Counted from the first letter of the stretch, positions 7,984 to 57,391 are shown. The stretch: DNA of 64,000 bases from Escherichia phage vB_EcoM_Goslar (NC_048170.1); one strand, 5' to 3'. Notes: a model not told the origin generated them from the letters alone. Made by a program: numbers and translations.

Positions 7984-8030
7984 GCATAACCCTCCTCCAA
8001 CCCGTAAGGGAAGGAGGAGGGAATATGCTG
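7984..8030. terminator. Bidirectional stem-loop between convergent genes (CCCTCCTCC / GGAGGAGGG arms, extended by CATAAC...ATGCTG flanks)
   Basis: Near-perfect inverted repeat read directly; lies between the + gene ending 7968 and the - gene ending 8031. Confidence 0.6.
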
Positions 8031-18469: not shown

Positions 18470-18504
18470 CAGGTCCCCCTACTTGTAATGAGTGGGTGAA
18501 CTCT

Positions 18505-18905
18505 CTTTAATTGCTGGAAACCTTTAATGCCCCTCCACACCACAACGCAATCCGAAAGGGTAAACGTGATGGTTGTCGAAAGACAGAAAAAAGTTGGAGG
18601 GGATTACCTATGTTGCAATAAAAGCCACCGCTTTCTTGGATAACGAAAGATGACGGTGGTACTAAGGGTAGAAGATAGAAATAAGGTAACCGTAGCAGCG
18701 AAGACCCTACGGACTGTCGTGACCGACTCGATGAGTTGGCGTGGTTAACACGGACAGGCTACGGGTAACGTTCAACGACCATCCGGTTGCGCGGAGTAGG
18801 AGAATTAGGATGTTCTCTGAAAAGGGAGAAGTCGGTCGAGGTGTTGTAGAAACACCATTCGGTTTGCTAACGCAAACCTAAGGCAGGCTAAGATATGGTC
18901 TATTT
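18505..18905 (+). ncRNA. Candidate group I intron catalytic core (P-, Q-, R-, S-like elements)
   Basis: R-like GTTCAACGACCA (~18770) and S-like AAGATATGGTC (~18890) with a compensatory P7 pair (GACCA/UGGUC versus consensus GACUA/UAGUC); P-like AATTGCTGGAAA (~18509); Q-like AACCGTAGCAGC (~18687); several hairpins; no ORF on either strand. Confidence 0.5.
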
Positions 18906-18948
18906 TTCGTTGTGTTCATGTATAGAAATTACTGAACCATCGTAAGAG

Positions 18949-19203
18949 CTCGATATATCTTCAAGCTATCCAAATGGGCAGATACTGCTCAATCTATCCA
19001 GAGCATGTGTTTTTCGTGAGCTCTCACGCATTGAGGGCGTCTCTGACTATCAATTCAGGAAGCTAGGTATCAACTTTATCACTGGAGGTAAAACGAACGC
19101 TGTAGACTTCTGTAGAATCGTTTATAAAGCGCCATCGATGTTTGAACTTTTAGAACATTTCGATGCGACGCGTCCAAAAGAGGAAGCGCGGACCATCGAA
19201 TGA
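18949..19203 (+). CDS. Candidate downstream exon: start-less open frame with polB motif-A-like sequence (LDISSSYPNGQ), stop at 19201-19203
   Basis: 86-codon open frame with no start codon until its last 21 codons; DISSSYP resembles DxxSLYPS; joining after 17186 to 18949 would be in frame and obey U at the 5' splice site and G at the intron 3' end. Confidence 0.3.
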   Translation, partial: LDISSSYPNGQILLNLSRACVFRELSRIEGVSDYQFRKLGINFITGGKTNAVDFCRIVYKAPSMFELLEHFDATRPKEEARTIE

Positions 19204-19245
19204 ATCAAGTATGTTGATCCTCGTTTAACAAAAAGAAAACGCATG

Positions 19246-19284
19246 CGAAGCCCCTCCCCCTGGCGGAAGCCGGAGGGAGGGGTG
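19246..19284 (-). terminator. Rho-independent terminator of the gene ending at 19289
   Basis: CCCCTCCC...GGGAGGGG stem with inner CTGGC/GCCGG pairing, followed on the minus strand by a T-rich tract (GTTTTCTTTTTGTT). Confidence 0.65.
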
Positions 19285-19288
19285 AGGT

Positions 19289-19774
19289 TTATGCGCGTTC
19301 GTTGCCAACCGTTACTTTGTAGTCAGCGTCGGTTAAGAAAATAGACAGGAATCCATGTTCTTTGCAAATCTTACTAAGGATGTCAGCAATGATTTCGTTG
19401 ATCATCGGCTTGTTTGCAAGGGCATAGATGTACCCGGGTGTAAAAGAAAGTGCGTGATTGATCATAGGCTCATGAGAAGCCAAGATAAGGATCACGTGAT
19501 GCTTCCCATCGTCGGTAACGACCGCTTGCGTAGACACGAAGAAATCAGTGAAGCAGCAGCGATCACAGGCTTTAGGTATATACAAGTCACCCAGAGCTTC
19601 GTCACGTGCTTTTACGTGTGTTTCAGGGGTAATGCTGCTAAGTTGATCTTCAGCGAGATCCAAGACATCCTCAATCGTTTTAAGAATAGCGTTGCGGAAA
19701 TCCTCACGGTAGAATGGGATGATATCACGATCGTTCATGTAATCGCCGGATTCGATAGTAAAGTTGATGTTCAT
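19289..19774 (-). CDS. Hypothetical small protein (161 aa)
   Basis: ORF track; terminator immediately downstream; preferred over the overlapping + strand ORF 19355..19777. Confidence 0.75.
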   Translation of the reverse strand: MNINFTIESGDYMNDRDIIPFYREDFRNAILKTIEDVLDLAEDQLSSITPETHVKARDEALGDLYIPKACDRCCFTDFFVSTQAVVTDDGKHHVILILASHEPMINHALSFTPGYIYALANKPMINEIIADILSKICKEHGFLSIFLTDADYKVTVGNERA

Positions 19775-19884
19775 TGAATGCTCCTAGTGGTTATGTCGAT
19801 TGATTGATGTGTTAATTTATGTTTGATGGGGTATACTTGAAACTACAAATAAGGCTCTTGGCGTTGCTGTTATGGTTCAGTTCT

Positions 19885-20334
19885 TTATCCCTTGTTGGAT
19901 TCGTCAATATACTTGGTGTCGTAAGACAAATGCTGAATTAATTTTCTAGGTCTGATGAAAATACGACATGTGATAAACACATCGGGATCGTATTGTTCCA
20001 CGCAACGTCCGAAGGCTCGTTTTGCGGACTGACGCATCAAGGCTAATTCCTGATCGTTCATCTCATCATCAAATTCGATGAGTATTGTTATTTTATCGGG
20101 AAATAAATAGATAGAGTAATCGCTACCGATATCACCGTCGTCAAAACGATAATCGTTGTGGTAATGGCGGAGCTTACCTTCGTGCTCCGCCTGGTACCAC
20201 CCGACGATACTATCAAGGCCCATACCCAGGCGTCCGAATGCCTGATTAATAATATCATCAACGACGGATGCAGGTGTGGGGCCATTGAATAATCTATCCA
20301 GACATTTTTTCATCGATTTGGTTTTCACGTTCAT
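19885..20334 (-). CDS. Hypothetical small protein (~149 aa; probable start at the second Met, MNVKTK)
   Basis: ORF track 19885..20361; AGGAAAAG RBS before the internal ATG. Confidence 0.7.
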   Translation of the reverse strand: MNVKTKSMKKCLDRLFNGPTPASVVDDIINQAFGRLGMGLDSIVGWYQAEHEGKLRHYHNDYRFDDGDIGSDYSIYLFPDKITILIEFDDEMNDQELALMRQSAKRAFGRCVEQYDPDVFITCRIFIRPRKLIQHLSYDTKYIDESNKG

Positions 20335-20363
20335 TGTTTCTTTTCCTGTTATAGTCAACATAT

Positions 20364-20398
20364 AGCCCTTCCCCGGCCTTGACGGCTAGGGAAGGGGC
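20364..20398 (-). terminator. Stem-loop (AGCCCTTCCCC / GGGAAGGGGCT) between tandem genes
   Basis: Inverted repeat read directly. Confidence 0.5.
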
Positions 20399-20423
20399 TA
20401 GGTACGTTATTTATGCTTCATTA

Positions 20424-20909
20424 TCAACCAGAGATGTTGCACGTTTCTTCTTCGTCGAGTGCGTACTCCATTGTGTAGAATTCATAACCATCGGAAAACT
20501 TGAGTGTTACTGTAATAGGGAAATCGCACGGCATAGCTGATTTCTTAAATGCGTTATTAGCAACATCAGCCAACCGACGTATAGCATCAGTCCCGCTGAC
20601 ACTGAATGGTAGTTGTATGTTGATAAGGATGCGGTGCTTGTAAACATAGAAAACAACGGTGCTGTCAAGATAAACGCTATGGAACGGTATTGTTGGGATG
20701 CGTTCCACGATGGTAAAATACGTCCCATCAATATCACTATTTCCCACTGACCACTTATCGGATTTGCGTAGATTTTCTTTGAGGAATTCGACGCTTCGAG
20801 TGACAGCCTCAGTAGTAGGTGCGACGTATGCGTCTTTATGCGTGTCGAAAAGTTCGTTGACGTTAGATTTGAATGAATACGCTGTTGCCATTTTGATAAC
20901 ACCGGTCAT
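20424..20909 (-). CDS. Hypothetical small protein (161 aa), paralogous to 20952..21449
   Basis: ORF track; shared C-terminal pattern (MP..ITVTLKFSDGYEFY versus MPVTLTISGHDGSGLFEFHY). Confidence 0.75.
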   Translation of the reverse strand: MTGVIKMATAYSFKSNVNELFDTHKDAYVAPTTEAVTRSVEFLKENLRKSDKWSVGNSDIDGTYFTIVERIPTIPFHSVYLDSTVVFYVYKHRILINIQLPFSVSGTDAIRRLADVANNAFKKSAMPCDFPITVTLKFSDGYEFYTMEYALDEEETCNISG

Positions 20910-20951
20910 GTTTAATTGATGAGTATTCCATCTAGTAAGGGAATACGTTAT

Positions 20952-21449
20952 TTAGCTATCGATCTCGCCATCTTCAGGATGGTAGTGGAATTCGAATAGC
21001 CCTGAACCATCGTGCCCGCTGATTGTTAATGTAACAGGCATATCGAATCCTCGTACGCGTTTATGAAAACACTCCGCTAACTTACGTTCAGCGTAATCTA
21101 CTATTTCATCGGTTGCTTCGACGCCACCTGTTACGCTGAGCGTGATATCGATACTAATGATGTTATCATGCAACGCAAACCGCCAACGATCGATACGATT
21201 ATTATCTTCAGCAGGCGTCTCGTTTACAAGATAGATTTTATCGTCAGCTGACAAAGCGGGACTCCAGCAACGTTCGTTTATTAATTTCGCCTGGAGTTTT
21301 AGTATCGTCTGATCAATAATATCCCAACACGTAACCAGCGTGACGTCAGGCACTGAATTGAGAAGGGCGAGCACTTTATCCTTTATTTTAAGTGCTTCCG
21401 CAGGACGCCCGCAAATACCATGCATTTCAACTTTCTTATCCATATTCAC
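20952..21449 (-). CDS. Hypothetical small protein (165 aa), paralogous to 20424..20909
   Basis: ORF track; similarity to neighbour. Confidence 0.75.
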   Translation of the reverse strand: MNMDKKVEMHGICGRPAEALKIKDKVLALLNSVPDVTLVTCWDIIDQTILKLQAKLINERCWSPALSADDKIYLVNETPAEDNNRIDRWRFALHDNIISIDITLSVTGGVEATDEIVDYAERKLAECFHKRVRGFDMPVTLTISGHDGSGLFEFHYHPEDGEIDS

Positions 21450-21495
21450 TTCTTCACTTCTTTCTTAATCTAAATGTTAGTTGGGGATGGGATGC

Positions 21496-22128
21496 TTACA
21501 TGCTTTCTAACATATCGATGATCATGGAACCCATACCGAAACTCGGTCTCTCGCCGATGTACTCAGCAAGCTGACGATGAACGTCTTTTGGATTTCCTTC
21601 TTCACCGTCGGCATCGATGTAGACCGAAAAAGAAAATGAATCGGAATCCACGCTGATAACCAGACGGCGTTCATTGCGTTCCTTGAGTGTATCGACAATA
21701 GCCGCTTTCAGTACCGCGATCGCATTCATCGCGTGCAAGATGTCTCCATCGGGTTTCGGTAGATCGATCTTTTCTTTCAGGTCGATATTGATGTTGGTTA
21801 CAATTGGATTGAGGTCGACCTTGACATAATCGTTAGGGAAAACGCGAATAATTGCACGATCGATATCTGAACCGTAAAAGTCAACACGTGGCTTTAACAC
21901 TTCTTTGTTTGGATCCATGTTTTCATCCATCCCGGCCTGCAAGAAACGTTCTACGTTATCCAGTTCACGATAAACTGACGCTTCGATTTCTTTCAGATAG
22001 TTGGCTGCGGTTTCATGTTCTTTACGCAGCTCGTCTTTAAGGAGCTGTACGGTGACTTCACTAGAACGAATGCTGTTCGCGAATTGGGTAATTGACATAT
22101 CGAATTCCTTAAATTCTCTTGAGTTCAA
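21496..22128 (-). CDS. Hypothetical protein (210 aa)
   Basis: ORF track; AAGGAA RBS. Confidence 0.8.
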   Translation of the reverse strand: MNSREFKEFDMSITQFANSIRSSEVTVQLLKDELRKEHETAANYLKEIEASVYRELDNVERFLQAGMDENMDPNKEVLKPRVDFYGSDIDRAIIRVFPNDYVKVDLNPIVTNINIDLKEKIDLPKPDGDILHAMNAIAVLKAAIVDTLKERNERRLVISVDSDSFSFSVYIDADGEEGNPKDVHRQLAEYIGERPSFGMGSMIIDMLESM

Positions 22129-22146
22129 TTAATGATGAAAAGCTGT

Positions 22147-22172
22147 AAAAAAAAGGTGGGGCGAACCCCACC
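22147..22172 (-). terminator. Rho-independent terminator (GGTGGGGCGAACCCCACC hairpin with an 8-nt T run on the minus strand)
   Basis: Hairpin plus A8 on the + strand, directly downstream of the gene ending at 22197. Confidence 0.65.
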
Positions 22173-22196
22173 AAAACGTCAGACACACGCAGAAAA

Positions 22197-22622
22197 TCAA
22201 TTCAGTGATGCATATAACGCATAACGACTGTAGATCTCAACCGCCGGTCCGTTATGCGTTAACAGACCATCCCGGTTGTAATACTGGAAAAATGAATAAC
22301 GTTTGTCGAAGTGATAAACAAAAGCAATGTCTTTGCCGTCAAAACCTGTGATGCGTGGTCTGTTTTTATCTAACAATGCTTTGACTTTTAACAGTGTTGC
22401 CGCACGTGCTTTAACGTTAGGGATTAATCCATCACAGTCGATATAAACGGTGTAACCTGTTTCAGATGTTGCGACGGTTGTATTACGATTGACGCGGAAG
22501 ATTTTTGTTTCGTATGTACTATCTTCAAGAATTGGGTTTTGTTTTTCGTATTTTCGTTTACGTAGAAATTCTACAACGGTGATATAGTTAGCGGTAATAT
22601 GCCCGGTTATAGCTTGTAACAT
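22197..22622 (-). CDS. Hypothetical protein (141 aa)
   Basis: ORF track; preceded by the conserved upstream element. Confidence 0.75.
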   Translation of the reverse strand: MLQAITGHITANYITVVEFLRKRKYEKQNPILEDSTYETKIFRVNRNTTVATSETGYTVYIDCDGLIPNVKARAATLLKVKALLDKNRPRITGFDGKDIAFVYHFDKRYSFFQYYNRDGLLTHNGPAVEIYSRYALYASLN

Positions 22623-22735
22623 CTCGACATCCTTTTATATTGGATTGATTGCAATTGTCTTAAATAGATGATAAGATATTTTGCTCTTATCACTAAGGTA
22701 ATGTAGTCGTGAAATAAACTGCGTTAACAAGAAAT
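22623..22735 (-). promoter_or_regulatory. Conserved upstream element, copy A (second copy at 49717..49812): conserved flanks around a covarying hairpin, ending in AAGGA RBS and ATG
   Basis: Near-identical 25 nt (CATCCTTTTATATTGGATTGrTTGC on the + strand) and a second conserved block (CACyTAAGgTAATrTAGyCGTGAAA) flank hairpins of different sequence (GATAAGA/TCTTATC here, GGTGAAGC/GCTTCACC in copy B). Confidence 0.45.
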
Positions 22736-22797
22736 AAAAACAGCATAGAACCCTCCTCCCCCATCCTTCAAGAGGACGGTGGGAAGAGGGAGAGAGA

Positions 22798-23199
22798 TTA
22801 AATGTCGTGGACGGCATTGCCGTTTAACCAGCAATACAGTTTAACGCGACAGGAATACCGCTTCGTTGCAGCAACCATTTCATCGCGTAAACGCTGGTAG
22901 ATTTCATCCTGGTGTTCACGTTCAATGGGGTAATCAGCCCAACATTCGATCATGACGTCACCATTAGTCAGAATCGTCGTACGCATCCTGTCCTGGACAC
23001 GACGATCTTTCCCAGCATTAGGGAAATACATCCCTTCAGTACGAATAAGGTCGCCGCAGGGCATGACTAACCATTCGTTCGTTTTGCCGGTATTCTTATA
23101 ATCCATTACAGCTTGCATTGCGGTGTCAACGCTAAAAGAAACATAATTCCAAACGGATGTCCAACGATAGATTGCGGGTTGTTCGAGTGTTTCGTTCAT
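22798..23199 (-). CDS. Hypothetical protein (133 aa)
   Basis: ORF track. Confidence 0.75.
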   Translation of the reverse strand: MNETLEQPAIYRWTSVWNYVSFSVDTAMQAVMDYKNTGKTNEWLVMPCGDLIRTEGMYFPNAGKDRRVQDRMRTTILTNGDVMIECWADYPIEREHQDEIYQRLRDEMVAATKRYSCRVKLYCWLNGNAVHDI

Positions 23200-23254
23200 G
23201 GAGTGCTTTTCCTATTTTTATTTTCTGCACAGGATAAATTCAACGGCATAAAGC

Positions 23255-23285
23255 CCTTCCCTGCCCTTATATGGGGCGGGAAGAG
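23255..23285 (-). terminator. Imperfect stem-loop (CTTCCCTGCCC / GGGCGGGAAG)
   Basis: Inverted repeat in a 210-bp intergenic region. Confidence 0.45.
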
Positions 23286-23412
23286 TTTATGACCGCAATG
23301 AGAATCTCTCACGACAAGCTCACGACGATTATCGCATCACCCCGCGAGTGAGGGAGATCAGGATCACCTCCTACGTCGTAACGACAGCAATCCCGTTACG
23401 TCGCATTAGACG

Positions 23413-29439: not shown

Positions 29440-29485
29440 CATAACCCTCTCCCAACCCAGCAGGGAAGGGAGAGGGCTTATGCTG
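29440..29485. terminator. Bidirectional stem-loop between convergent genes (CCCTCTCCC / GGGAGAGGG), same family as 7984..8030
   Basis: Inverted repeat; same AACCC...AGGGAA loop and ATGCTGTTAT flank as the 7984 element. Confidence 0.6.
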
Positions 29486-30468: not shown

Positions 30469-33081
30469 TTAAGCGTCTGGTGTAAAATCAAAAGGAATGT
30501 CCGTACGAATGATATCATAACGTTTTCCTAATAAATAGAACTCTTCGGGAACCTGGCCGGGAATAATGCTATCGCCGATGAACTGCGGATACGCCCAGAT
30601 GTACTGAGTGAGTCCTTCGAACATATCCAGGTTATTTGCGTGGTTACCCATGATACGTTTCCAGAGTTCGCGTTTATACGGTGTTTTAACATCGAATCCA
30701 TAAAGCGGTGCAAGATCTTCACCAGGAACAAATCCCAGGTAATAATGGATCTGACTAACCGGGAAACCAAGCGTATCTCGCGGAATGGTGATCGCTTGCT
30801 CAGCCTTGGTGACATGCGTTTCAATAATCCAGTCGTAGCACTCCGAATAGAACCGATCGAATTTCTCTGGGTTATACCACGCTTTGGGAAGATTCAGTTT
30901 CTCCGTGAACGCGTTCGACATGATCGTCGGCAAGAACGGAAGAACGCCGGTTTTGATCTGCGTGTATTTCGATTTTACCCGGTTAACCAAATTCCAGCAA
31001 CTGTATCCTAATTGGTCGTTACAAAACTCAACGTAGAGATCGTAGTCACCACCGGATAACGGGTTGTTAATATCACCGATGTCTGCGGCGTATTTGTTGG
31101 GATATCGGTTATTGAAAGCCAGTTTGGTTTGGTAATCGTAGATACACGGTTTGTTGTTCGCTGTATTGATCCACCACCAGGGTTCACCTACTTGTACACA
31201 AATGTCCTGGACATGGGGGTAGATGATATCAGCAAACGCGGTTAACACATCCCCTAACCACGCCATCGCCTGTTGGTTACATGGAGACAGCAACCAGGAC
31301 GGTGGTGTATATCCGGTTGCTGCGATGTTTCCTTCCCAATCCTGCTGCGCCCACTCGAATGGACACGCCGTACTCATCAATTCGTAACTTAAACTGATGG
31401 TGACAGAGAAATGGTGTTTTGCAGCATATGCGGCGAAAGCTTCATGCCACGCGATACAGGGTGGATTTAATACATCCGTGGTGTTCACCAGTAACTTACC
31501 CGCACTTGGCGTCCAGACAGTATCGTAGAAATGCGACATTCCAACATAATGCACTAATTCATCCTGATATCCCGCATAAACCAGGTTTTCAAATACACGC
31601 TCTGGCGTGATGTTGTAATGGTCATCGTAAGCGGTTATCGCACGAAGTTCGTGTGGCGTACAATGATGGCGATTAACCGTCATTTCCTGATACACCCCAT
31701 CGATAGGAAGAATCTCGAGGGTTAAACCGAGGTCGATTGGCGTTTCCAGATAGGTCGTTTCAGTCGCATCTTCCTTATAATGTCGAGAACTCATGCTGAA
31801 CATCAACGACGTTACCGATTCAAGTTCGATAGGTTCGTCAGCATAGAACCCCGCCATTGCGTCATTGAAATCGATCGTCACGATTGCGCTTGTACCGTCT
31901 TCAGAGACGTCGGTCGCATATCGGGTTAATGAGATATACTGACGGCTATCGTCTTTGTGTACGATGGTTAGAACCGGCGGGTTTTCGGTATCTGCAAAGT
32001 TACGCTGATCGCCAGTAAACGTGATCTTCGCTTTAAAGATCAAACCGAATAACGACGTCATGGGATCATACGCAATACAACCGTGATCCAGCGTATCCGT
32101 TGTCCGCCATTCTATCCCGACCAACCCGTTAGCGGTATGGCATCGCATATACGCATTAAGGACCATGTCTTCACTGACAACCGCGAAGTTCTCTGTTGAC
32201 TGACCGTTGATAATCCAATACATCGGTTGCCAGAGGTTACGCGTACCTTTTGCGTAGCGGTAGGTTGGTGCGCCTTTAGGGTTGCCATTATTGAGATGGA
32301 ATACGGCAGTACCTTGATAATGGTCGTTCGTATTAATCGGAACACTGTAAGCATCACCGAGATCCGTACGTTCCACCTTCGTGACTGTTGCGTTTTCAAA
32401 CAACCCACGTAGCGCCGGTAAACCGATATCTTCAGGTGCGTTTTCTCGACGAATCGCATCCGCGATGCGGTGGGCTAAGGCGGGGTAAATGGCCTCACCC
32501 TGCTGTAGGTTTGCAAGACCTACAAAGCGATCGGGGTCGATGCCAGCAATCAATAACTCGACATCACCCTTCGTTCTATCGTCGTTAAGATATTTCAGTC
32601 CGGTAAGGTCAAGATGCTGAATAAGCGACAACAGGTTGTATTTACGGTTTTCAACAGTTAGTACAAGATCGCCTGCCCAAACCAAACTTCCCTCATCCGC
32701 TGTTACTTTAACGGATTGTCGGCCTGTGGTAGACGTTGTTGTCGTTTTATTTAATTGTCCTTGTAGGAAGTCGGTTGCGAGGTCAAAGGCAATGCCGTAA
32801 CGGTCAGCGACCGCTTGCATGATTTCACGTAACTGGGTATCTTCTTCAATGATAATCTTGATAGGTATTCCCAAGAACGCTTTAGCGAGGTCTCGTTTAA
32901 CCAACGAGACGAATACGGATTTGTAGTATCGGCTTCCATCTTTCCCTTTAAAAAGAATGGAGGTTGTTTCGGGTGCCGATAGAACACGTGCAAATTCAAC
33001 ATCGTCGAATGTAAGAGAAAGTCCGTTTTTCTCGTTGACCAATCTTAGTATTTCATTTTGCGCGGTTTCATGTAACTTCAT
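30469..33081 (-). CDS. Putative tail fiber / receptor-binding protein (870 aa) with N-terminal domain shared with 38868..39413 and 43211..44041
   Basis: N-terminal similarity (RDLAKAFLGIPIKIIIE versus RDIAKAFLGIPVKIVLE); Trp/Tyr/Gly-rich C-terminal part; position in the fiber locus. Confidence 0.55.
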   Translation of the reverse strand: MKLHETAQNEILRLVNEKNGLSLTFDDVEFARVLSAPETTSILFKGKDGSRYYKSVFVSLVKRDLAKAFLGIPIKIIIEEDTQLREIMQAVADRYGIAFDLATDFLQGQLNKTTTTSTTGRQSVKVTADEGSLVWAGDLVLTVENRKYNLLSLIQHLDLTGLKYLNDDRTKGDVELLIAGIDPDRFVGLANLQQGEAIYPALAHRIADAIRRENAPEDIGLPALRGLFENATVTKVERTDLGDAYSVPINTNDHYQGTAVFHLNNGNPKGAPTYRYAKGTRNLWQPMYWIINGQSTENFAVVSEDMVLNAYMRCHTANGLVGIEWRTTDTLDHGCIAYDPMTSLFGLIFKAKITFTGDQRNFADTENPPVLTIVHKDDSRQYISLTRYATDVSEDGTSAIVTIDFNDAMAGFYADEPIELESVTSLMFSMSSRHYKEDATETTYLETPIDLGLTLEILPIDGVYQEMTVNRHHCTPHELRAITAYDDHYNITPERVFENLVYAGYQDELVHYVGMSHFYDTVWTPSAGKLLVNTTDVLNPPCIAWHEAFAAYAAKHHFSVTISLSYELMSTACPFEWAQQDWEGNIAATGYTPPSWLLSPCNQQAMAWLGDVLTAFADIIYPHVQDICVQVGEPWWWINTANNKPCIYDYQTKLAFNNRYPNKYAADIGDINNPLSGGDYDLYVEFCNDQLGYSCWNLVNRVKSKYTQIKTGVLPFLPTIMSNAFTEKLNLPKAWYNPEKFDRFYSECYDWIIETHVTKAEQAITIPRDTLGFPVSQIHYYLGFVPGEDLAPLYGFDVKTPYKRELWKRIMGNHANNLDMFEGLTQYIWAYPQFIGDSIIPGQVPEEFYLLGKRYDIIRTDIPFDFTPDA

Positions 33082-33883: not shown

Positions 33884-33913
33884 AGCTCCTCCTTCCCTGA
33901 CGGGTTGGAGGAG
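33884..33913 (-). terminator. Stem-loop (GCTCCTCC / GGAGGAGC) downstream of the lipoprotein gene
   Basis: Inverted repeat followed on the minus strand by a T-rich tract. Confidence 0.5.
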
Positions 33914-33922
33914 CATACTTAA

Positions 33923-38867: not shown

Positions 38868-39413
38868 TTATCCTGGATAAATAGTGATGATATCACCAAT
38901 GACGGTTGTGGCACCGGCGTAAAGATGAGCCGGAGATACATCGTGTTGGTTTGTCACAGTAAGATCCAATCGACCACGCCAAACCACGGAGGTATTCGCG
39001 ATGGGGATAGAAATCTTTTTGGATATATCGTCACGAAAATCAATAACAGTGGCAAGGGTAACCGCATCAAAATCAACGTCGGGGTCAAAGACGAACCCGT
39101 ATTGATCTGAAATCGCCCGAATAATCGCATGTATAGTTGTTGTCTCGACGGACTCTAAAACGATTTTTACCGGTATTCCTAAAAATGCCTTCGCGATATC
39201 GCGTCGAGCGTAAACGATAAAACTTTCACCACACCACTTTGTTCCTTCATTTGCTGTGACGATCACTTTTGCCCTGTTAGCACCAGAACTCCCATCCAAG
39301 GTTAATGTAAGATCGGAGTTGCTGAACACGCTACCGTTACGTTGGTTTATCAACGTAATCAGTTCGTCTTTCCATGGCGGGTAAAGTGAACGCATAAGCG
39401 CACCCTCCTCCAA
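38868..39413 (-). CDS. Short paralog (181 aa) consisting essentially of the N-terminal domain shared with 30469..33081; possible adaptor
   Basis: Alignment by eye across about 150 aa with the N-terminus of the 870-aa protein. Confidence 0.65.
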   Translation of the reverse strand: MEEGALMRSLYPPWKDELITLINQRNGSVFSNSDLTLTLDGSSGANRAKVIVTANEGTKWCGESFIVYARRDIAKAFLGIPVKIVLESVETTTIHAIIRAISDQYGFVFDPDVDFDAVTLATVIDFRDDISKKISIPIANTSVVWRGRLDLTVTNQHDVSPAHLYAGATTVIGDIITIYPG

Positions 39414-39600
39414 TAATCAAATTAAAATGTAAAACGCCTCGAAACCGGAGTGCGATTCGAGGTAAACGTAAACAGTCCAGACGACCGCATAAAATTCCGC
39501 GCATATTGCCCCTCTACCCCGACAAAGCGAGATAGAGGGGAGGATAATACGATTATGCTACTACACTCCAAAGTTCATGGGGCGGTAATCGCCCCATCGG

Positions 39601-43210: not shown

Positions 43211-44041
43211 TTAATCGTAACTAAAATAAAGTTTGCTGCTGACGCCGCTATCGGAACGAGGTTTTAATACCAGAACAGAGCTTCCGAACGACGGAAGTAT
43301 TGGAACATCTAAATCGTTCGCATCGGCAACTTTTCCATTATAAACGACATTGGCTGTTGTGATGAGTTCCCAAGCTAAGGTATAACTCATTGAAATCAGC
43401 GACGAGGCTAAACGGAATGCGTTGTATCCTTCTGGAGTATCTCCAACCGACATCGAACGTATCGCATCTTGCGGCGGTAAATTTAGCTTGATGCCGTAGG
43501 TGCTGAATGTGTGGAAATCCCCTTGTTTACTATCTTCTGGATAATACGAGGTTAGCGGTTCTCGCACCGTAATCAGTTCGCTAATATCGGTACTTACATC
43601 TTTTCGTGCGAGGAATTGAAACGTACCGTGCCATGATGCCGACGCGTCAGAACGAACGGGAACAGATATGGTTTTCTCGCCGCTTTCAAATTTAACCTGT
43701 GACGCTAACGCTGAAGAATCAAAGATCGTTAAATCGATCTTCAACCCATACTTCTTAAACAGCTGCGTTAAGCAGTCTGCTATCGTCGTCTTATCAGCAA
43801 CGACAATAAAAGGTTGGTGTTTGATAAAGAGCTTATTAATGTCTCGACGTTGAAGATAAACCTGTACGGGGTCTTCGACGTAGTAAACCGATTGTGGTGC
43901 AGGGGCTATAGAAAGGCGTAACCGACCCGATGCACCATACCAGGCTGGCGTTAACGTAATGTCTGACAGGGACAACGGATGCTGGAGATAGGCGTTTATT
44001 TTAGATAACACTTCCTCCTGCCATGATGCTTCAGGATACAT
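43211..44041 (-). CDS. Hypothetical protein (276 aa) with weaker similarity to the shared N-terminal domain
   Basis: ORF track; pattern similarity (RRDINKLF...YG...D...TISVPV). Confidence 0.65.
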   Translation of the reverse strand: MYPEASWQEEVLSKINAYLQHPLSLSDITLTPAWYGASGRLRLSIAPAPQSVYYVEDPVQVYLQRRDINKLFIKHQPFIVVADKTTIADCLTQLFKKYGLKIDLTIFDSSALASQVKFESGEKTISVPVRSDASASWHGTFQFLARKDVSTDISELITVREPLTSYYPEDSKQGDFHTFSTYGIKLNLPPQDAIRSMSVGDTPEGYNAFRLASSLISMSYTLAWELITTANVVYNGKVADANDLDVPILPSFGSSVLVLKPRSDSGVSSKLYFSYD

Positions 44042-44099
44042 GCTGACCTCATAGATGATCGTTGATAGGAAAGAAACCTAATTCATACCATGGGAACCT

Positions 44100-44161
44100 C
44101 AAAAAAAAAAACGAAAAAAAAAATAGGAAAACGGTGTTCATCCCTAAAAAGGATGAACACC
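44100..44161 (-). terminator. Strong rho-independent terminator (11-bp perfect hairpin GGTGTTCATCC / GGATGAACACC with long T tracts on the minus strand)
   Basis: Perfect inverted repeat and poly(A) on the + strand, directly downstream of the gene ending at 44183. Confidence 0.75.
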
Positions 44162-44182
44162 GCGTACCGTTATATCGAACGA

Positions 44183-46461: not shown

Positions 46462-46495
46462 GCATAAACCCTTCCTGCGTAAGGCAGGAAGGGCG
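46462..46495 (-). terminator. Stem-loop (ACCCTTCCTGC / GCAGGAAGGGC), CATAAACCC family
   Basis: Perfect 11-bp inverted repeat downstream of the gene ending at 46508. Confidence 0.6.
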
Positions 46496-46507
46496 TACGG
46501 ATTTGTT

Positions 46508-49398: not shown

Positions 49399-49716
49399 TT
49401 AGTTTGCACGTAAGAAATGACCCAGAACCGTTACGATTGGAAACAGCCCCGTAACAGTATTATCACCCGAAAACATCATCATTGTTCCGTTAACGGTGAT
49501 GAAACGGATGTCGGTTGCGGACCCATCGATAGCGACAAAACGCATCGAGTTCGGTGGAAGGTCCTCAACCACTTCCACGAGGTACTCGCGATTATCAAAG
49601 GCTTCTTTAACACGACGCATGAAACGAATCAAGGTTCCTTCCGCGTCAGCTTCCAAATGACCTAAGATATCGCGATTATTACGAATAGCAAATACAGCCA
49701 TTTTAAACATACTCAT
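49399..49716 (-). CDS. Hypothetical protein (105 aa)
   Basis: ORF track; preceded by the conserved upstream element. Confidence 0.7.
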   Translation of the reverse strand: MSMFKMAVFAIRNNRDILGHLEADAEGTLIRFMRRVKEAFDNREYLVEVVEDLPPNSMRFVAIDGSATDIRFITVNGTMMMFSGDNTVTGLFPIVTVLGHFLRAN

Positions 49717-49812
49717 CTTGACATCCTTTTATATTGGATTGGTTGCTAATAATTCAAGGTGAAGCTGATTACTGCATTGCTTCACCTAAGTAATATAGCC
49801 GTGAAAATTAAT
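49717..49812 (-). promoter_or_regulatory. Conserved upstream element, copy B (see 22623..22735)
   Basis: Same conserved flanks as copy A with a different, self-complementary hairpin (GGTGAAGC / GCTTCACC). Confidence 0.45.
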
Positions 49813-53645: not shown

Positions 53646-53693
53646 TTTGTTTCCTTTTATCGGCATAAGCCCTCCCATGCCGGGAGGGTACAA

Positions 53694-54123: not shown

Positions 54124-54657
54124 TTAAGCTCCTTTGTGTTTTACGGACGATGTTAACCAGGACGATCTTACCGTGAAACCCTCAGACTCGTAGAACGCCT
54201 GGGCTTCGTCGTTATCAGCACGAACATCCAGACCGATAGAATGACCACCGCATCGGTAAGCGATGTTACGTGCTTCATTCATCAAGGCGTGGCCGATCCC
54301 GCGTCCACGGTATTCCGGTTTTACAATAATCGATGTAACATCGTGAATACCCATATGGCTCTCTGTATTCACTTCCAAGAGACCCACTGGTACTGAAGCG
54401 ATAGCATCGATCATAACGACCAACTTTGCGGTGTCTGGTAAACGCTTTTCTAATTCTAAAGCATCGTACTCGCGTTTTAAATCGGGGATATTCTCAAACA
54501 TAAACGTGGTAGCCCATGCCTCTGATTCTACATCGTCGAGAATACGGTACAGCTCACGAATCTGTCGTTTATGTGGGTAAAGGTGTGGATCGGCAGCCGT
54601 TGAGGCGATAACGCAATAGAACGGTCGTTCATTAATAACTACTGTTTTGATGCTCAT
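54124..54657 (-). CDS. GNAT-family N-acetyltransferase
   Basis: Acetyl-CoA-binding motif IIVKPEYRGRGIGHALMNEA. Confidence 0.7.
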   Translation of the reverse strand: MSIKTVVINERPFYCVIASTAADPHLYPHKRQIRELYRILDDVESEAWATTFMFENIPDLKREYDALELEKRLPDTAKLVVMIDAIASVPVGLLEVNTESHMGIHDVTSIIVKPEYRGRGIGHALMNEARNIAYRCGGHSIGLDVRADNDEAQAFYESEGFTVRSSWLTSSVKHKGA

Positions 54658-55160
54658 GCTAAAATTCCCTCATTACCTAACAGTCGATTACGATGACGTC
54701 GGTACATTTGACAAAGTGTTGTGATTTGATAATGTTTGTTGTAACGTACCTCGATACGTTTTTGCACCTCTTTCCATGGAAGTTTATCGTATTGCCGATA
54801 ACGATGGATTTCATTTAACATACGAAGACGAGTAGGATCGGTGTTCTTTATCGTCGTGAGCTTCACACGTTGATATCCACGCTGTAGTCCCGATTCGGAA
54901 TACGTGACGTCAAACTCATCTTGAATGATGGTAATGATCTCCCGCCACCGACGGTTCTCGCCGTCACGTAAATGGACAACCCGTGATAAGATATCGTTCC
55001 GATTACGATGACTCAGTTTAATGTTAAGCATTGAAGCAATCGCGCTAATTGCTCTCTGACTCCGTCCTAACGCTTCACCTATTTCTTTCGATGTCATGAC
55101 GCCCGCGTTTCGGCGTATGAATGCGATTTCGGTTGTTGTGTATTCTTTACCTGCTGCCAT
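54654..55160 (-). CDS. Myb/SANT-like HTH DNA-binding protein, paralog 6 of a tandem array
   Basis: Repeated W/Y...EI...R...I modules; C-terminal WREIITIIQDEF...LQRGY and WKEVQKRIEVRY...LCQMY. Confidence 0.6.
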   Translation of the reverse strand: MAAGKEYTTTEIAFIRRNAGVMTSKEIGEALGRSQRAISAIASMLNIKLSHRNRNDILSRVVHLRDGENRRWREIITIIQDEFDVTYSESGLQRGYQRVKLTTIKNTDPTRLRMLNEIHRYRQYDKLPWKEVQKRIEVRYNKHYQITTLCQMYRRHRNRLLGNEGILA

Positions 55161-55675
55161 TTCTTACCACGTGTGTTATAATAGTAACGCTGACAAAGAT
55201 GTGTGTGATGGTACTCCCGTTTGAACTCGACGCTGATAATGCGAGCAACTTCTCTCCAGTTAACTCCTTCATGCCGGAGTGCTGTAATACGGTCTGAAAT
55301 TTTGCACCATTCATCTGGATCGTATCGTCGTAGCTTGAGTCGTCGTATTACGGAGGCGACACTCGCTCTCGATCGGCCAAGATGATTTGACAGTTGTTTA
55401 ACCGAGTATCTGTGGATATTGTCACGAATATAGGAAATCTCGTTGTTCGTATATGCCTCATTGGTTCTCGACGAAGGGAACAGCATATACAACTTATTCT
55501 TAATCGCGCTTTCTGTGCGTTGAAATACAGAAGCCAGCTCACTAACCGGTGGTCTGGGTATCTGGTCCGCGTAATTCTCGAGGCGTGAGAGTTCCTCATC
55601 TGTCCAGCGACGGTATTTGCGCACGGGCAACTCCTTTGTTTTTCGTGTAGTAACACCAACGTTGATACAACGCAT
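55094..55675 (-). CDS. Myb/SANT-like HTH DNA-binding protein, paralog 5 (start uncertain)
   Basis: WTDEELSRL...; ...SVKQLSNHLGRSRASVASVIRRL; ...VNWREVARIISVEF...LCQRYY; track start 55726 overlaps paralog 4. Confidence 0.55.
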   Translation of the reverse strand: MRCINVGVTTRKTKELPVRKYRRWTDEELSRLENYADQIPRPPVSELASVFQRTESAIKNKLYMLFPSSRTNEAYTNNEISYIRDNIHRYSVKQLSNHLGRSRASVASVIRRLKLRRYDPDEWCKISDRITALRHEGVNWREVARIISVEFKREYHHTHLCQRYYYNTRGKKWQQVKNTQQPKSHSYAETRAS

Positions 55676-56099
55676 GTTTATTCGTCGTAATCCCAAATTT
55701 AACAACAACGTCGTATGTGATAACATTCCAATTTTGGGTAACGTTAAGTCGTTCCGCGATAAACGCGATAATCGCTTCCCGTTCTTGCTTTGTTAACGCA
55801 CGACGAATTCCATTAAGCCGTATAAACTGACGAACCGAGTCATACGAACGGTTTAAATCGTACGCAATCTCCCTCAACGATTTTTGTTTGATTACGGACT
55901 TGATGTACGCGCGTTCTTCTTCCGTATACGGTCGATGCTTTTGGCGTTGACGTATTCCCAAACGTCCCAGACGCGCGTCGATGCTGGCGCGTGTTCGTCC
56001 TGTCCGTTGTGCGATTTCATCAATCGTCAGCGACGTGTTCAAGTACAGGTGTATAACATCTTTTAACTCATCGTTACGCCACGGCCGAGGTCGTCCCAT
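55596..56099 (-). CDS. Myb/SANT-like HTH DNA-binding protein, paralog 4
   Basis: WRNDELKDVIHLY...IDEIAQRTGRTRASIDARL; YTEEERAYI...LREIAYDLNRSYDSVRQF; QNWNVITYDVVVKF...LYQRW. Confidence 0.6.
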   Translation of the reverse strand: MGRPRPWRNDELKDVIHLYLNTSLTIDEIAQRTGRTRASIDARLGRLGIRQRQKHRPYTEEERAYIKSVIKQKSLREIAYDLNRSYDSVRQFIRLNGIRRALTKQEREAIIAFIAERLNVTQNWNVITYDVVVKFGITTNKHALYQRWCYYTKNKGVARAQIPSLDR

Positions 56100-56577
56100 C
56101 TTGTATCCCTCTTTTCTTTCTATGATGCCACCAACGCTGATAAACAGCCTGCTTCGTACGTGTTATACCGAAATGCGCATTAACCCGTTCAGCAATGTGG
56201 TGCCAATCCTGTGTTTCTTCTAACAATGTATCAACGAAGGCTATGAAGATCTTAGTATCATCCTCGCTTAACCGCTTGAAACCATGACGGTGTGCTATCG
56301 TTCTAATACTGTTTGGATCCCTGTTTAAATCGCGTGCGAGTTGTTTGTAACTTTTGTGTTTGCAGTGCACTCTGATATATTCCAACTCATCGACACTGAA
56401 ACGTTTATGCGGTTTACGACGTTCAACATTTAAGTATATCAACCTCGATTTAATTGCACCGTACGTTGTTTCCATGATTTCTGCGATTTCACGGATTTTT
56501 AATTTCGGGTGACGATAGTACAATTCCAGCAACTGTTCATCATCCTTACGATTCCATCGTCGTACTGGAGGTTTCAC
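56074..56577 (-). CDS. Myb/SANT-like HTH DNA-binding protein, paralog 3
   Basis: RWNRKDDEQLLELY...IREIAEIMETTYGAIKSRL; ...QDWHHIAERVNAHF...VYQRWW. Confidence 0.6.
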   Translation of the reverse strand: MKPPVRRWNRKDDEQLLELYYRHPKLKIREIAEIMETTYGAIKSRLIYLNVERRKPHKRFSVDELEYIRVHCKHKSYKQLARDLNRDPNSIRTIAHRHGFKRLSEDDTKIFIAFVDTLLEETQDWHHIAERVNAHFGITRTKQAVYQRWWHHRKKRGIQDGTTSAVA

Positions 56578-56590
56578 AACGAGATTTCTC

Positions 56591-57058: not shown

Positions 57059-57070
57059 AGCGCCACCCCA

Positions 57071-57391
57071 TCAACGTCTTACTTTAAGCGTTATCTTGTT
57101 TCGAAAACAATAACACCGGATGGCGTGTACGCTACGATTCATTATTTCAGCAATCTCTTTTAGCGTATGTTTCTTTGCAAGCGTGGCAACCCTAACCCTT
57201 TCTTCTGGCGTGTATACTCCCCCGCGAGGTGGTAGATCACCCCATCGTTTCCTCAACTTGAGGTAACGTGCGCGAATAGAGCACGGTGTTCGATTCATGC
57301 TTCGCGCTACTTCTTTATAGCTCGCTTTTGGTGATGTACTAAGAATAAGCAGCAACGTTTCATCTTCTTTATCTGTCCAACGTTTACCCAT
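57071..57391 (-). CDS. Myb/SANT-like HTH DNA-binding protein, paralog 1 (two repeats, 106 aa)
   Basis: RWTDKEDETLLLIL...YKEVARSMNRTPCSIRARY; YTPEERVRVATL...LKEIAEIMNRSVHAIRCY. Confidence 0.6.
   Translation of the reverse strand: MGKRWTDKEDETLLLILSTSPKASYKEVARSMNRTPCSIRARYLKLRKRWGDLPPRGGVYTPEERVRVATLAKKHTLKEIAEIMNRSVHAIRCYCFRNKITLKVRR

What the first reader, a model, noticed from the sequence alone, without database searches (positions are those of the whole stretch)
19289..23199. Seven small minus-strand genes with at least one paralogous pair, most bracketed by terminator hairpins
Seven ORFs of 133-210 aa lie in tandem between the polymerase/intron locus and the RNA polymerase fragment; stem-loops follow five of them and gaps of 45-110 bp precede the rest. 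The proteins at 20424..20909 and 20952..21449 are paralogous at their C-termini. Insulated, individually terminated small genes resemble accessory or moron-like cassettes, which often encode host-takeover or anti-defence functions.
Basis: partly seen in the sequence, partly recalled or inferred. Interest (0 to 1): 0.5.

Follow-up and report, generated by a model that had tools for sequence, protein, structure and literature searches.

The report
Variable early-gene island in phage Goslar
Six of the seven small genes form a self-contained, early-switched-on and fast-changing block of orphan genes inside the late structural region of the nucleus-forming E. coli jumbo phage Goslar, so they are good but untested candidates for host-takeover or counter-defence factors; the seventh is an ordinary late gene.

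Summary
The window is phage Goslar, and the seven ORFs are gp070-gp076, matched by exact protein mass. Stem-loops follow five genes. The paralogy is wider than reported: gp071, gp072 and gp073 form one family.

Published Goslar RNA-seq shows gp070-gp075 are transcribed when phage-nucleus formation is blocked, so they are early genes. gp076, gp077 (capsid decorator), gp078 (virion RNAP subunit) and gp067-069 drop 16-60-fold, so they are late. The unit is therefore a six-gene early island inside about 46 late genes, plus one late gene.

The island has a single phiKZ-type early-promoter motif (TACATTAC) at its head and strong hairpins at both ends. Read density is even across it, so it behaves as one operon, not seven insulated cassettes.

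In Goslar-like phages the flanks are 98-99.8% identical, but the island holds 6 to about 12 genes. These show duplication, fusion, paralog recombination and raised dN/dS. No island protein has homologues outside this clade or a recognisable domain.

gp070 is found at about 166 copies per virion preparation; the others are at trace levels.

Function is untested. An early host-interface role is the best inference. This is a new member of a known kind, the hyperplastic early accessory region.

The parts
22798..23199 (-). g7 = Goslar gp076 (133 aa). Late gene; it is not part of the early island and belongs with gp077-gp079.
   Evidence: ORF. Mass 15744.7 versus 15744.9 in Table S4. RNA-seq log2FC on ChmA knock-down is -4.5/-6.1/-5.0. 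About 2.6 copies in the virion MS. Present in all relatives at 83-96% identity, dN/dS about 0.1.
23251..23288 (-). Strong pyrimidine-to-purine (Y->R) hairpin in the gp077-gp076 spacer. The TATG that follows is base-paired with an upstream CAUA.
   Evidence: -29.8 kcal/mol, z -5.3.
22755..22793 (-). Y->R hairpin directly after the gp076 stop codon. It marks the upstream (late to early) boundary of the island.
   Evidence: -31.4 kcal/mol, z -4.1. A hairpin of this class sits at the same boundary in every related locus.
22691..22714 (-). phiKZ-type early (virion-RNAP) promoter motif TTTCACGACTACATTACCTTAGTG.
   Evidence: 2 matches in the window versus 0.02 expected. Exactly one per related locus, always at the island head. 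It matches the phiKZ TATATTAC and the 201phi2-1 ...TATATTACDWHDGTG predicted early promoters (PMC7058600 Table 2). Reads per nt in the knock-down rise about 130-fold across it.
22665..22695 (-). 5'-UTR stem-loop immediately downstream of the promoter motif. It is replaced by a different stem-loop in some relatives.
   Evidence: -10.1 kcal/mol, z -3.5; alignment A3.
22620..22647 (-). Conserved leader with Shine-Dalgarno sequence and ATG (CAATCCAATATAAAAGGATGTCGAGATG). It is also present before the early gene ending at 49716.
22197..22622 (-). g6 = gp075 (141 aa, pI 9.4). First gene of the early island.
   Evidence: RNA-seq log2FC +1.05/+1.07/+1.17. Present in all relatives at 78-99% identity.
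22147..22172 (-). Canonical intrinsic-terminator-like hairpin plus T8 after gp075. It is apparently read through in early transcription.
   Evidence: Read density is even downstream of it.
21496..22098 (-). g5 = gp074 (200 aa, pI 4.65). Early gene.
   Evidence: log2FC about +1.06. Homologues only in the Goslar clade at >=70% identity. About 8 copies in the virion MS, 5 peptides.
20952..21443 (-). g4 = gp073 (163 aa, pI 4.9). Early gene; member of the gp071-073 family.
   Evidence: BFVD hit A0A482GHL3 (Goslar) at 100% identity. log2FC +1.0 to +1.3. dN/dS 0.11-0.52.
20923..20946 (-). Weak hairpin after gp073.
   Evidence: -7.6 kcal/mol, z -2.8.
20424..20909 (-). g3 = gp072 (161 aa). Early gene; paralogue of gp073.
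   Evidence: log2FC +1.0 to +1.2. dN/dS 0.31-0.62.
20366..20396 (-). Internal Y->R hairpin after gp072. In relatives, extra genes (the x9 pair) sit between the gp072-type stop codon and this hairpin.
   Evidence: -30 kcal/mol, z -4.8.
19885..20334 (-). g2 = gp071 (149 aa). Early gene; distant member of the gp072/073 family.
   Evidence: Mass match. hhalign and iterative HMM. log2FC +1.1.
19289..19774 (-). g1 = gp070 (161 aa, pI 4.7). Last gene of the island; early-expressed, yet found at about 166 copies per virion preparation.
   Evidence: mass 18203.5 versus 18203.7; 4 peptides, 37 spectra. log2FC +1.0 to +1.2. Only 7 homologue clusters, all in the clade, all 161 aa.
19251..19282 (-). Terminal Y->R hairpin with a U-rich tail. 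It lies between convergent gp070 (early) and the DNA-polymerase exon-2-like frame (late), and marks the downstream boundary of the island.
   Evidence: -27.7 kcal/mol, z -3.4. Nearly identical in all relatives.

Best explanation
**What it is.** The region is phage Goslar gp070-gp076. It consists of two different things.

1. gp076 is an ordinary late gene. It continues the late block gp079, gp078 (virion RNAP subunit) and gp077 (capsid decorator).
2. gp075 to gp070 is a self-contained early transcription unit embedded in a long run of late genes.

**How the island is built.**
- A strong hairpin ends the late unit.
- A single phiKZ-type early promoter follows (TACATTAC in Goslar, TATATTAC in relatives), with a 5'-UTR stem-loop and a conserved leader.
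- From this promoter the injected virion RNA polymerase is inferred to transcribe all six ORFs as one message, from the early infection vesicle.
- A strong hairpin after gp070 closes the unit against the convergent late polymerase gene.

**What it carries.** The cargo is clade-restricted orphan proteins, five of the six acidic. It includes a tandemly duplicating family (gp071-073). Among near-identical Goslar-like phages the cargo is gained, lost, fused and recombined at gene junctions.

**Most likely role.** The proteins most likely act in the host cytoplasm in the first minutes of infection, as host-takeover or counter-defence and host-range factors. gp070 is additionally carried in, or with, virions.

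**Shown versus inferred.**
- Shown: gene identity, early versus late expression, protein-level expression, variability, paralogy and purifying selection.
- Inferred: promoter use, polycistronic transcript and biological role.

My confidence is about 0.85 for the architecture and about 0.4 for the host-interface function.
For: **Identity.** Computed masses match Goslar gp070-gp077 within 0.3 Da. BFVD returns a 100% identity hit to Goslar. g8 matches PDB 'Capsid Decorator gp77'.

**Expression.** In the ChmA knock-down RNA-seq, gp070-075 change by about +1 log2. gp067-069 and gp076-079 change by -3.6 to -6.1. Read density across the island is 0.9-1.3 reads/nt, against 0.006 for gp076 in the knock-down.

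**Promoter motif.** There are 2 hits in the window versus 0.02 expected. One is conserved at the island head in every relative. It matches published phiKZ and 201phi2-1 early-promoter consensus sequences.

**Boundary hairpins.**

**Variability.** Island content ranges from 6 to about 12 genes between flanks that are 98-99.8% identical. Breakpoints fall at gene junctions. A chimeric paralogue and a fused paralogue exist. Identity patterns are mosaic and dN/dS is 0.3-0.6 for gp072/073, against 0.01-0.19 for the flanks.

**Orphan status.** There are no Pfam or PHROG matches. The family has 8 hits among 1.84 billion representatives. Homologues are found only within the clade.

**Real proteins.** Peptides are detected for all seven, and dN/dS is below 1.
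Against: - No transcription start site or transcript-length data were seen, so the single-promoter operon is inferred. It rests on one motif and on even read counts at 30 min post infection.
- 'Early' is defined here by insensitivity to the ChmA knock-down, not by per-gene 5-min data.
- Internal hairpins, including a canonical terminator after gp075, could still modulate expression or mark further promoters.
- No experiment or homology links any island protein to host takeover or anti-defence.
- gp075, gp074 and gp070 are present in every relative examined, so part of the island is conserved rather than accessory.
- The abundance of gp070 in virion preparations suggests a different, possibly structural or injected, role.
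- The fold model of gp073 is only moderate (pLDDT 68) and that of gp070 is poor (pLDDT 55). Neither gives a functional clue.
Confidence: 0.6

Rival explanations
1. Seven independently insulated moron-like cassettes, each with its own promoter and terminator.
For: Five genes are followed by stem-loops, three of them very stable. Gaps of 42-175 nt separate the genes. Genes are gained and lost one or two at a time at junctions.
Against: Only one early-promoter motif occurs in the block. There is no hairpin after gp074 or gp071. RNA-seq read density is even across all six early genes, so the internal hairpins do not stop transcription. gp076 is in a different temporal class.
Confidence: 0.12
2. 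Virion-associated (internal head or ejected) proteins. On this view the block is an extension of the neighbouring structural genes, and its products are packaged and injected with the DNA.
For: gp070 is estimated at about 166 copies per virion, similar to the validated virion-associated gp60 (about 141). All seven proteins yield peptides from CsCl-purified virions. The neighbours gp077 and gp078 are virion components.
Against: gp071-gp075 are at 0.4-8 copies, in the range of the non-virion RNAP contaminants (about 0.5). The authors state that their preparation also carries chimallin (126 copies) and PhuZ (171 copies) assemblies. gp070-075 are early genes, whereas known virion genes here are late. 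There is no PF12699 or other virion domain. Gene content varies among relatives.
Confidence: 0.15
3. The hairpin+TATG modules are terminator plus late-promoter units (the non-virion RNAP recognises TATG). This would give gp075-070, or gp071-070, a second late wave of expression, which would explain gp070 in virions.
For: TATG with the start site at G is the phiKZ late-promoter core (PMC4666361). TATG follows Y->R hairpins 8 times against 0.075 expected, including before gp076 (late), gp075 and gp071.
Against: The same modules occur in purely early regions. They also occur at convergent gene ends with TATG on both strands. The TATG is often base-paired with an upstream CATA as the base of the stem. 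gp070-075 reads are not higher in the control than in the nucleus-less knock-down.
Confidence: 0.2
4. Decaying or functionless filler ORFs in a recombination-prone spacer.
For: The proteins are orphans with no domains or outside homologues. Turnover is high.
Against: dN/dS is 0.06-0.62, always below 1. Lengths are conserved; gp070 is always 161 aa. Peptides are detected for all seven, and for four of them with >=3 peptides. The promoter and leader are conserved.
Confidence: 0.03

Closest known systems
Hyperplastic regions with PeSL (promoter-early stem-loop) cassettes in T4-type phages (Arbiol et al. 2010, PMC2839356; Comeau et al. 2014, PMC4122927)
   Same: - A cluster of small, non-conserved, early-expressed orphan genes lies between conserved core blocks.
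- A composite promoter plus stem-loop regulatory cassette recurs at different loci. Here the promoter, stem-loop and leader unit sits before gp075, before the gene ending at 49716, and before x8 in two relatives.
- Closely related phages differ by insertion, deletion and replacement at gene junctions next to such motifs.
   Different: - The promoter motif is of the phiKZ virion-RNAP type, not sigma-70.
- Only one promoter cassette heads the whole island, rather than one per gene.
- The abundant hairpins are a separate pyrimidine-to-purine class without an attached promoter.
- Mini-circles and recombination at the motifs have not been shown.
Morons of lambdoid phages (Hendrix/Juhala concept; from my own knowledge)
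   Same: An autonomously regulated transcription unit (own promoter, flanking terminators) is inserted between late genes and expressed on a different schedule from its neighbours.
   Different: - This is a multi-gene operon, not a single gene.
- The phage is virulent and nucleus-forming, so there is no prophage expression.
- Transcription is by a phage-encoded RNAP.
- The island as a whole is present in every relative; only its cargo varies.
- There is no distinct base composition.
phiKZ-family early (virion-RNAP) transcription units (Ceyssens et al. 2014, cited; Armbruster et al., PMC10541120)
   Same: There is a TATATTAC-type motif upstream. Transcription is independent of nucleus formation, and the products are translated in the host cytoplasm at the start of infection.
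   Different: Most Goslar early genes lie in long early regions, for example gp094 onward. This one is an isolated six-gene island inside about 46 late genes, and its cargo is hypervariable.
PF12699 'inner body' and other high-copy virion-associated proteins of Goslar and phiKZ (bioRxiv 10.64898/2026.04.21.720040)
   Same: gp070 is detected at about 166 copies per virion preparation. The proteins are small, of unknown function and clade-specific, and form paralogous families.
   Different: There is no PF12699 domain. The genes are early rather than late, and five of the six island proteins are at trace levels.

Membership tests
phiKZ-type early (vRNAP-dependent) transcription unit | AT-rich TATATTAC-type promoter motif upstream of the first gene | tested here: met
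   TTTCACGACTACATTACCTTAGTG lies at 22691-22714, and relatives carry TATATTAC at the same place. The consensus sequences come from PMC7058600 Table 2.
phiKZ-type early (vRNAP-dependent) transcription unit | Transcription independent of phage-nucleus formation and of the non-virion RNAP | tested here: met
   In published RNA-seq, gp070-075 change by about +1 log2 in the ChmA knock-down, against -3.6 to -6.1 for flanking genes.
phiKZ-type early (vRNAP-dependent) transcription unit | Transcription start site mapped at the motif; transcript made within minutes of infection | not testable with these tools
   No per-gene 5-min or 5'-end data were accessible. Only the 30-min knock-down versus control table was held.
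T4-type hyperplastic region with PeSL cassettes | Cluster of small non-conserved early genes between conserved core blocks | tested here: met
T4-type hyperplastic region with PeSL cassettes | Repeated composite promoter plus stem-loop motif flanking individual ORFs | tested here: not met
   The promoter, stem-loop and leader cassette occurs once in the island and twice in the 64 kb window. The internal hairpins carry no promoter motif.
T4-type hyperplastic region with PeSL cassettes | Indel and replacement breakpoints coincide with the regulatory motifs | tested here: inconclusive
   The x8 and x9 indels abut Y->R hairpins, and the leader is duplicated around x8 in L009 and L010. Other indels lie at plain gene junctions.
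T4-type hyperplastic region with PeSL cassettes | Sigma-70-like early promoters read by host RNAP | tested here: not met
   Sigma-70-like sites are below chance in the region (6 versus 11.5 expected). The motif present is of the phiKZ type.
Moron | Own promoter and terminator; expressed independently of flanking late genes | tested here: met
   (at the level of the six-gene unit).
Moron | Unit present in some genomes and absent at the same site in close relatives | tested here: not met
   The island is present in all seven loci compared; only its internal cargo varies. It is absent after the homologous block in the distant phage Eowyn.
Moron | Expression from a prophage or temperate context | tested here: not met
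   Goslar is a virulent chimallivirus.
PF12699 / inner-body virion proteins | PF12699 domain | tested here: not met
   None of the seven proteins has a Pfam hit.
PF12699 / inner-body virion proteins | High copy number in purified virions and late expression | tested here: not met
   Only gp070 is abundant (about 166 copies); the others are at 0.4-8 copies. The island genes are early.
Known anti-defence protein families (Acr, anti-RM, anti-CBASS and others) | Sequence or fold similarity to a characterised inhibitor | tested here: inconclusive

The most novel reading that the evidence does not exclude
The gp075-gp070 island could be a diversity-generating 'front-line' locus of Goslar-like chimalliviruses. 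On this reading:
- A vRNAP-driven operon makes fast-evolving small acidic proteins, with the gp071-073 family expanding to 3-5 copies.
- Each protein neutralises a different cytoplasmic host defence or sensor. These would be the defences that act before or around the early infection vesicle, when the phage's DNA shield is irrelevant.
- gp070 is pre-packaged and co-injected, so it acts before any transcription.
- The promoter, stem-loop and leader cassette and the Y->R hairpins serve as PeSL-like recombination joints that shuffle cargo between co-infecting phages. This would be the first such system described for a phage-RNAP-transcribed genome.
Probability: 0.2. Interest if true: 0.7.

Novelty: new member of a known kind. 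Interest (0 to 1): 0.45.

Why it matters
Nucleus-forming jumbo phages hide their DNA from restriction and CRISPR systems. Host immunity must therefore act on what is exposed early: mRNAs, early proteins and the infection vesicle. Avs5 sensing of the early protein JADA (PMC12931631) is one example.

A small, separately switched, rapidly diversifying early operon in the best-developed E. coli chimallivirus model is a natural place to look for counter-defence or host-range determinants. Sixty natural Goslar-like variants already exist, 59 of them in isolate assemblies from four Enterobacteriaceae genera. They provide a ready-made comparative panel.

CRISPRi-ART knock-down and tagged-virion methods are already established for Goslar. 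The six genes are therefore directly testable.

The analysis also gives a concrete candidate early-promoter consensus and a terminator-hairpin class for Goslar.

Tried and rejected
1. **Nucleotide searches.** Megablast of the locus against the phage, plasmid and E. coli genome collections found nothing. Goslar appears to be absent from the 'phages' copy. Identity came instead from BFVD, protein masses and the PDB.
2. **Domain searches.** Pfam and PHROGs gave nothing for the seven proteins or for eight extra island proteins from relatives.
3. **Deep homology.** An exhaustive profile search with the gp073/072 alignment gave 8 hits, all within the clade. The gp074 and gp070 searches also stayed within the clade.
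5. **One superfamily for all seven.** I rejected this at the sequence level. Iterative HMM search converges on gp071-073 plus x11 only. The similar secondary-structure order of the gp070 and gp073 models is only suggestive.
6. **Hairpin+TATG as a late promoter.** I considered this because of the phiKZ TATG consensus. I demoted it because the modules also occur in early regions and at convergent gene ends, the TATG is often part of the stem, and the RNA-seq shows no late boost.
7. **Rfam.** No family reached threshold anywhere in the window.
8. **Literature.** No paper in the library's main texts mentions gp070-gp076 of Goslar.

Full report
**1. Observation**

The ORF listing shows seven tandem minus-strand ORFs at exactly the reported coordinates. 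Three upstream-most start codons are probably wrong. Protein masses computed from the window equal the masses listed for Goslar gp070-gp077 within 0.3 Da. This holds only if g2 starts at 20334 (149 aa), g4 at 21443 (163 aa) and g5 at 22098 (200 aa) (compared with Table S4 of bioRxiv 10.64898/2026.04.21.720040).

Folding the 3' junctions of each gene gives the following:

| Junction | Result |
|---|---|
| after g7 | -31.4 kcal/mol, z -4.1 |
| after g6 | canonical GC hairpin plus U8 |
| after g5 | no structure |
| after g4 | weak hairpin, -7.6 kcal/mol |
| after g3 | -30 kcal/mol, z -4.8 |
| after g2 | no structure |
| after g1 | -27.7 kcal/mol, z -3.4 |

The strong hairpins belong to a window-wide class with a pyrimidine-rich 5' arm and a purine-rich 3' arm (CCCTCYYCC...GGRRGAGGG). 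This class is about 9-fold over-represented. When followed by TATG it is about 100-fold over-represented relative to Markov simulations.

The region holds 7 of the window's roughly 33 intergenic gaps of >=25 nt within 4 kb.

g3 and g4 are paralogous over their full length (24% identity over 155-165 residues). Profile-profile comparison and an iterative HMM search add g2 to the same family. They do not add g1, g5, g6 or g7.

**2. Identity of the genome**

Nucleotide searches of the three annotated collections found nothing. The neighbouring RNAP beta fragment is <=34% identical to any phage in that collection.

The AlphaFold model of g4 matched the BFVD entry A0A482GHL3 of Escherichia phage vB_EcoM_Goslar at 100% identity. 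g8 matches PDB chain 11fg_A, 'Capsid Decorator gp77' (E 1e-136). The eight exact mass matches fix the numbering:
- g1-g7 = gp070-gp076
- g8 = gp077
- the 433-aa RNAP fragment = gp078, a virion RNAP subunit

Goslar is a nucleus-forming chimallivirus. Its clade comprises 60 genomes, and 59 of them come from Enterobacteriaceae isolate assemblies (bioRxiv 10.1101/2024.12.31.630880). This explains why homologues turned up in roughly 240-kb contigs labelled Salmonella, E. coli and Shigella.

**3. Expression**

Supplementary Table 2 of Armbruster et al. (bioRxiv 10.1101/2023.09.20.558163) gives per-gene RNA-seq at 30 min. It compares a control strain with a ChmA knock-down. In the knock-down, infection arrests at the early infection vesicle and only the early, virion-RNAP programme runs.

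- gp070-gp075 change by +1.0 to +1.3 log2.
- gp067-069 change by -3.7 to -5.2.
- gp076-079 change by -3.6 to -6.1.
- All of gp048-069 and gp076-093 are late; gp094 onward is early.

g1-g6 are therefore an isolated six-gene early island inside about 46 late genes, and g7 is a late gene.

Raw read density is 0.9-1.3 reads/nt across the six genes in both conditions. For gp076 in the knock-down it is 0.006 reads/nt. That is a roughly 130-fold step within the 175-nt gp076-gp075 spacer.

**4. Signals**

That spacer contains TTTCACGACTACATTACCTTAGTG (22691-22714).

- The published predicted early promoters are TATATTAC for phiKZ and ...WTTTRARR_BTATATTACDWHDGTG for 201phi2-1 (PMC7058600 Table 2).
- The extended motif occurs twice in the window (22698-22714 and 49790-49806, both before early genes), against 0.02 expected.
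- It occurs exactly once in each related locus, always at the head of the island, and there as TATATTAC.
- It is followed by a 5'-UTR stem-loop and a conserved leader, CAATCCAATATAAAAGGATG...ATG. This whole promoter, stem-loop and leader unit recurs before the gene ending at 49716 and, in two relatives, before gene x8. The stem-loop itself is exchanged between variants.

I considered that the TATG after the Y->R hairpins marks late promoters, since TATG is the phiKZ non-virion RNAP core (PMC4666361). Four points argue against this:
- The modules occur in both early and late regions.
- They occur at convergent gene ends with TATG on both strands.
- The TATG often pairs with an upstream CATA as the base of the stem.
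- The island shows no nucleus-dependent boost.

I therefore read these hairpins mainly as terminators or insulators. Two of them bound the island. The internal hairpins evidently let early transcription through.

**5. Comparative picture**

In six related loci the flanks are conserved: gp079, gp078 and gp077 on one side, and gp070, the intron-borne HNH gene and the DNA polymerase on the other. The island holds 6 genes in Goslar and up to about 12 in relatives.

Always present:
- gp076
- gp075
- gp074
- a gp073 orthologue
- gp070, in every locus that extends far enough

Variable:
- x8, absent in Goslar
- x9, a tandem pair
- x10
- x11
- x16
- gp071
- two to five members of the gp072/073 family

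Specific rearrangements:
- A 305-aa fusion of two paralogues exists.
- A gp073 orthologue carries a gp072-type C-terminal half.
- Breakpoints lie at gene junctions. Several fall between a stop codon and the next Y->R hairpin.
- x8 lies upstream of the promoter in four relatives and downstream of it in two.

Identity is mosaic. In L009, for example, gp070 is 98% identical to Goslar but gp074 only 72%.

dN/dS values:

| Gene(s) | dN/dS |
|---|---|
| gp078 | 0.01-0.03 |
| gp074-079 (other than gp078) | 0.07-0.19 |
| gp072 | 0.31-0.62 |
| gp073 | 0.11-0.52 |
| gp071 | 0.13-0.37 |
| gp070 | 0.06-0.36 |

All genes are under purifying selection. The duplicating family is markedly relaxed or diversifying.

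The distant phage Eowyn has the homologous gp079-078-077 block but no such array after it.

**6. The proteins**

- None of the seven, nor eight extra island proteins from relatives, matches Pfam or a PHROG of known function.
- An exhaustive profile search of 1.84 billion representatives found 8 hits, all in the clade. The gp074 and gp070 searches also stayed within the clade.
- Five of the six island proteins are acidic (pI 4.6-5.5); gp075 is basic (pI 9.4).
- The gp070 model is unreliable (pLDDT 55).

In LC-MS/MS of purified virions, copy estimates per virion are as follows:

| Protein | Estimated copies |
|---|---|
| gp070 | ~166 |
| gp074 | ~8 |
| gp071 | ~3.7 |
| gp076 | ~2.6 |
| gp072, gp073, gp075 | 0.4-0.5 |

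The authors note that the same preparation carries chimallin (~126 copies), PhuZ (~171 copies) and traces of the non-virion RNAP. The low values therefore prove expression, not packaging. The enrichment of gp070 over its co-transcribed neighbours is specific, but its meaning (packaged versus co-purifying assembly) is open.

**7. Explanation and rivals**

Best supported: a single early operon, gp075 to gp070. It is insulated as a whole from the surrounding late genes and carries a hyperplastic cargo of clade-specific small proteins that act at the host interface early in infection. gp076 is a separate late gene.

My confidence is about 0.85 for the architecture and about 0.4 for the functional class.

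Rivals, with my probabilities:
- Seven individually insulated cassettes: 0.12. Contradicted by the single promoter motif and the even read density.
- Virion or ejection proteins: 0.15. Supported only for gp070.
- Dual early and late expression from TATG promoters: 0.2 as an add-on to the main explanation.
- Junk ORFs: 0.03.

**8. Comparison with known systems and novelty**

The island works most like the hyperplastic regions of T4-type phages, with their promoter-early stem-loop cassettes (PMC2839356), and like a multi-gene moron. It fails defining features of both: there is no per-gene sigma-70 PeSL and no prophage context. It meets the tested features of a phiKZ-type early transcription unit.

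The genes are annotated only as hypothetical proteins. I found no paper that discusses them. The expression and proteomic facts sit unremarked in supplementary tables.

I rate this a new member of a known kind, with moderate interest. It is a concrete, testable shortlist of early accessory genes in a tractable chimallivirus model, not a new principle.

Noticed in passing
window 54654-57391 (minus strand): A second tandem paralogue array of five small genes (54654-55160, 55094-55726, 56074-56577, 56591-57058, 57071-57391). Mutual blastp E-values run from 1e-5 to 6e-14. By blastp it is unrelated to gp070-076. It lies in the early region (gp094 onward).
   Followed up: partly
window 49714-49806 (minus strand): A second copy of the early-promoter, stem-loop and leader cassette (TTTCACGGCTATATTACTTAGGTG...CAATCCAATATAAAAGGATGTCAAGATG) precedes a 105-aa early gene. 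In relative L011 this exact variant, including its stem-loop, sits before gp075 instead. This implies exchange of regulatory cassettes between loci.
   Followed up: partly
window 18470-19288: An 819-nt stretch without an annotated gene lies between the HNH endonuclease ORF and gp070. It contains a stop-free plus-strand frame (18946-19203) with a family-B polymerase motif-A-like DISSSYPNG, which looks like a short DNA-polymerase exon 2 after an intron carrying the HNH gene. Rfam found no group I intron at gathering threshold. The intron part differs between relatives (368-403 aa HNH variants).
   Followed up: partly
window 7990-8021, 29443-29478, 33885-33914, 39509-39540, 46463-46499, 53661-53682, 60495-60544; L007 1153-1184; L011 1070-1101: A genome-wide family of Y->R hairpins (CCCTCCTCC-loop-GGAGGAGGG), often with CATAA...TTATG flanks. 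At orthologous sites in different phages the 14-nt loop appears in either orientation (TTCCCTTACGGGTT versus AACCCGTAAGGGAA), as if flipped by recombination between the arms. At convergent gene ends TATG occurs on both strands.
   Followed up: partly
L007 10001-10492 (P0060); L010 9127-10044: A gp073 orthologue has a C-terminal half of gp072 type, which indicates recombination between paralogues. A 305-aa ORF is an in-frame fusion of two adjacent family members.
   Followed up: partly
L002, L007, L011, L012 versus L009, L010 (gene x8, about 146-163 aa; absent from Goslar): Gene x8 lies upstream of the boundary hairpin and early promoter (the late side, right after gp076) in four relatives. In two others it lies downstream of the promoter (the early side). 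The same gene may therefore have switched temporal class.
   Followed up: no
window 23200-23412: The 213-nt gp077-gp076 spacer is densely structured, with several hairpins (for example 23372-23405, 23319-23348 and 23251-23288). Rfam has no match, and the purpose is unknown.
   Followed up: no
window 44042-44182: At the early/late boundary gp094|gp093 there is a very strong canonical terminator (16-bp stem at 44129-44165) followed by two long T runs. This differs from the Y->R hairpin class used at the gp070-075 island boundaries.
   Followed up: no
window 30469-33081, 38868-39413, 43211-44041: Three proteins share an N-terminal module of about 150 aa (blastp E 4e-19 and 5e-10). By gene counting they correspond to the published DUF7941 fibre proteins gp086, gp091 and gp093.
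   Followed up: yes
tool collections: Goslar (NC_048170) gave no megablast hit in the 'phages' collection, although it is a RefSeq phage. Absence of hits there should not be read as novelty of the genome.
   Followed up: yes
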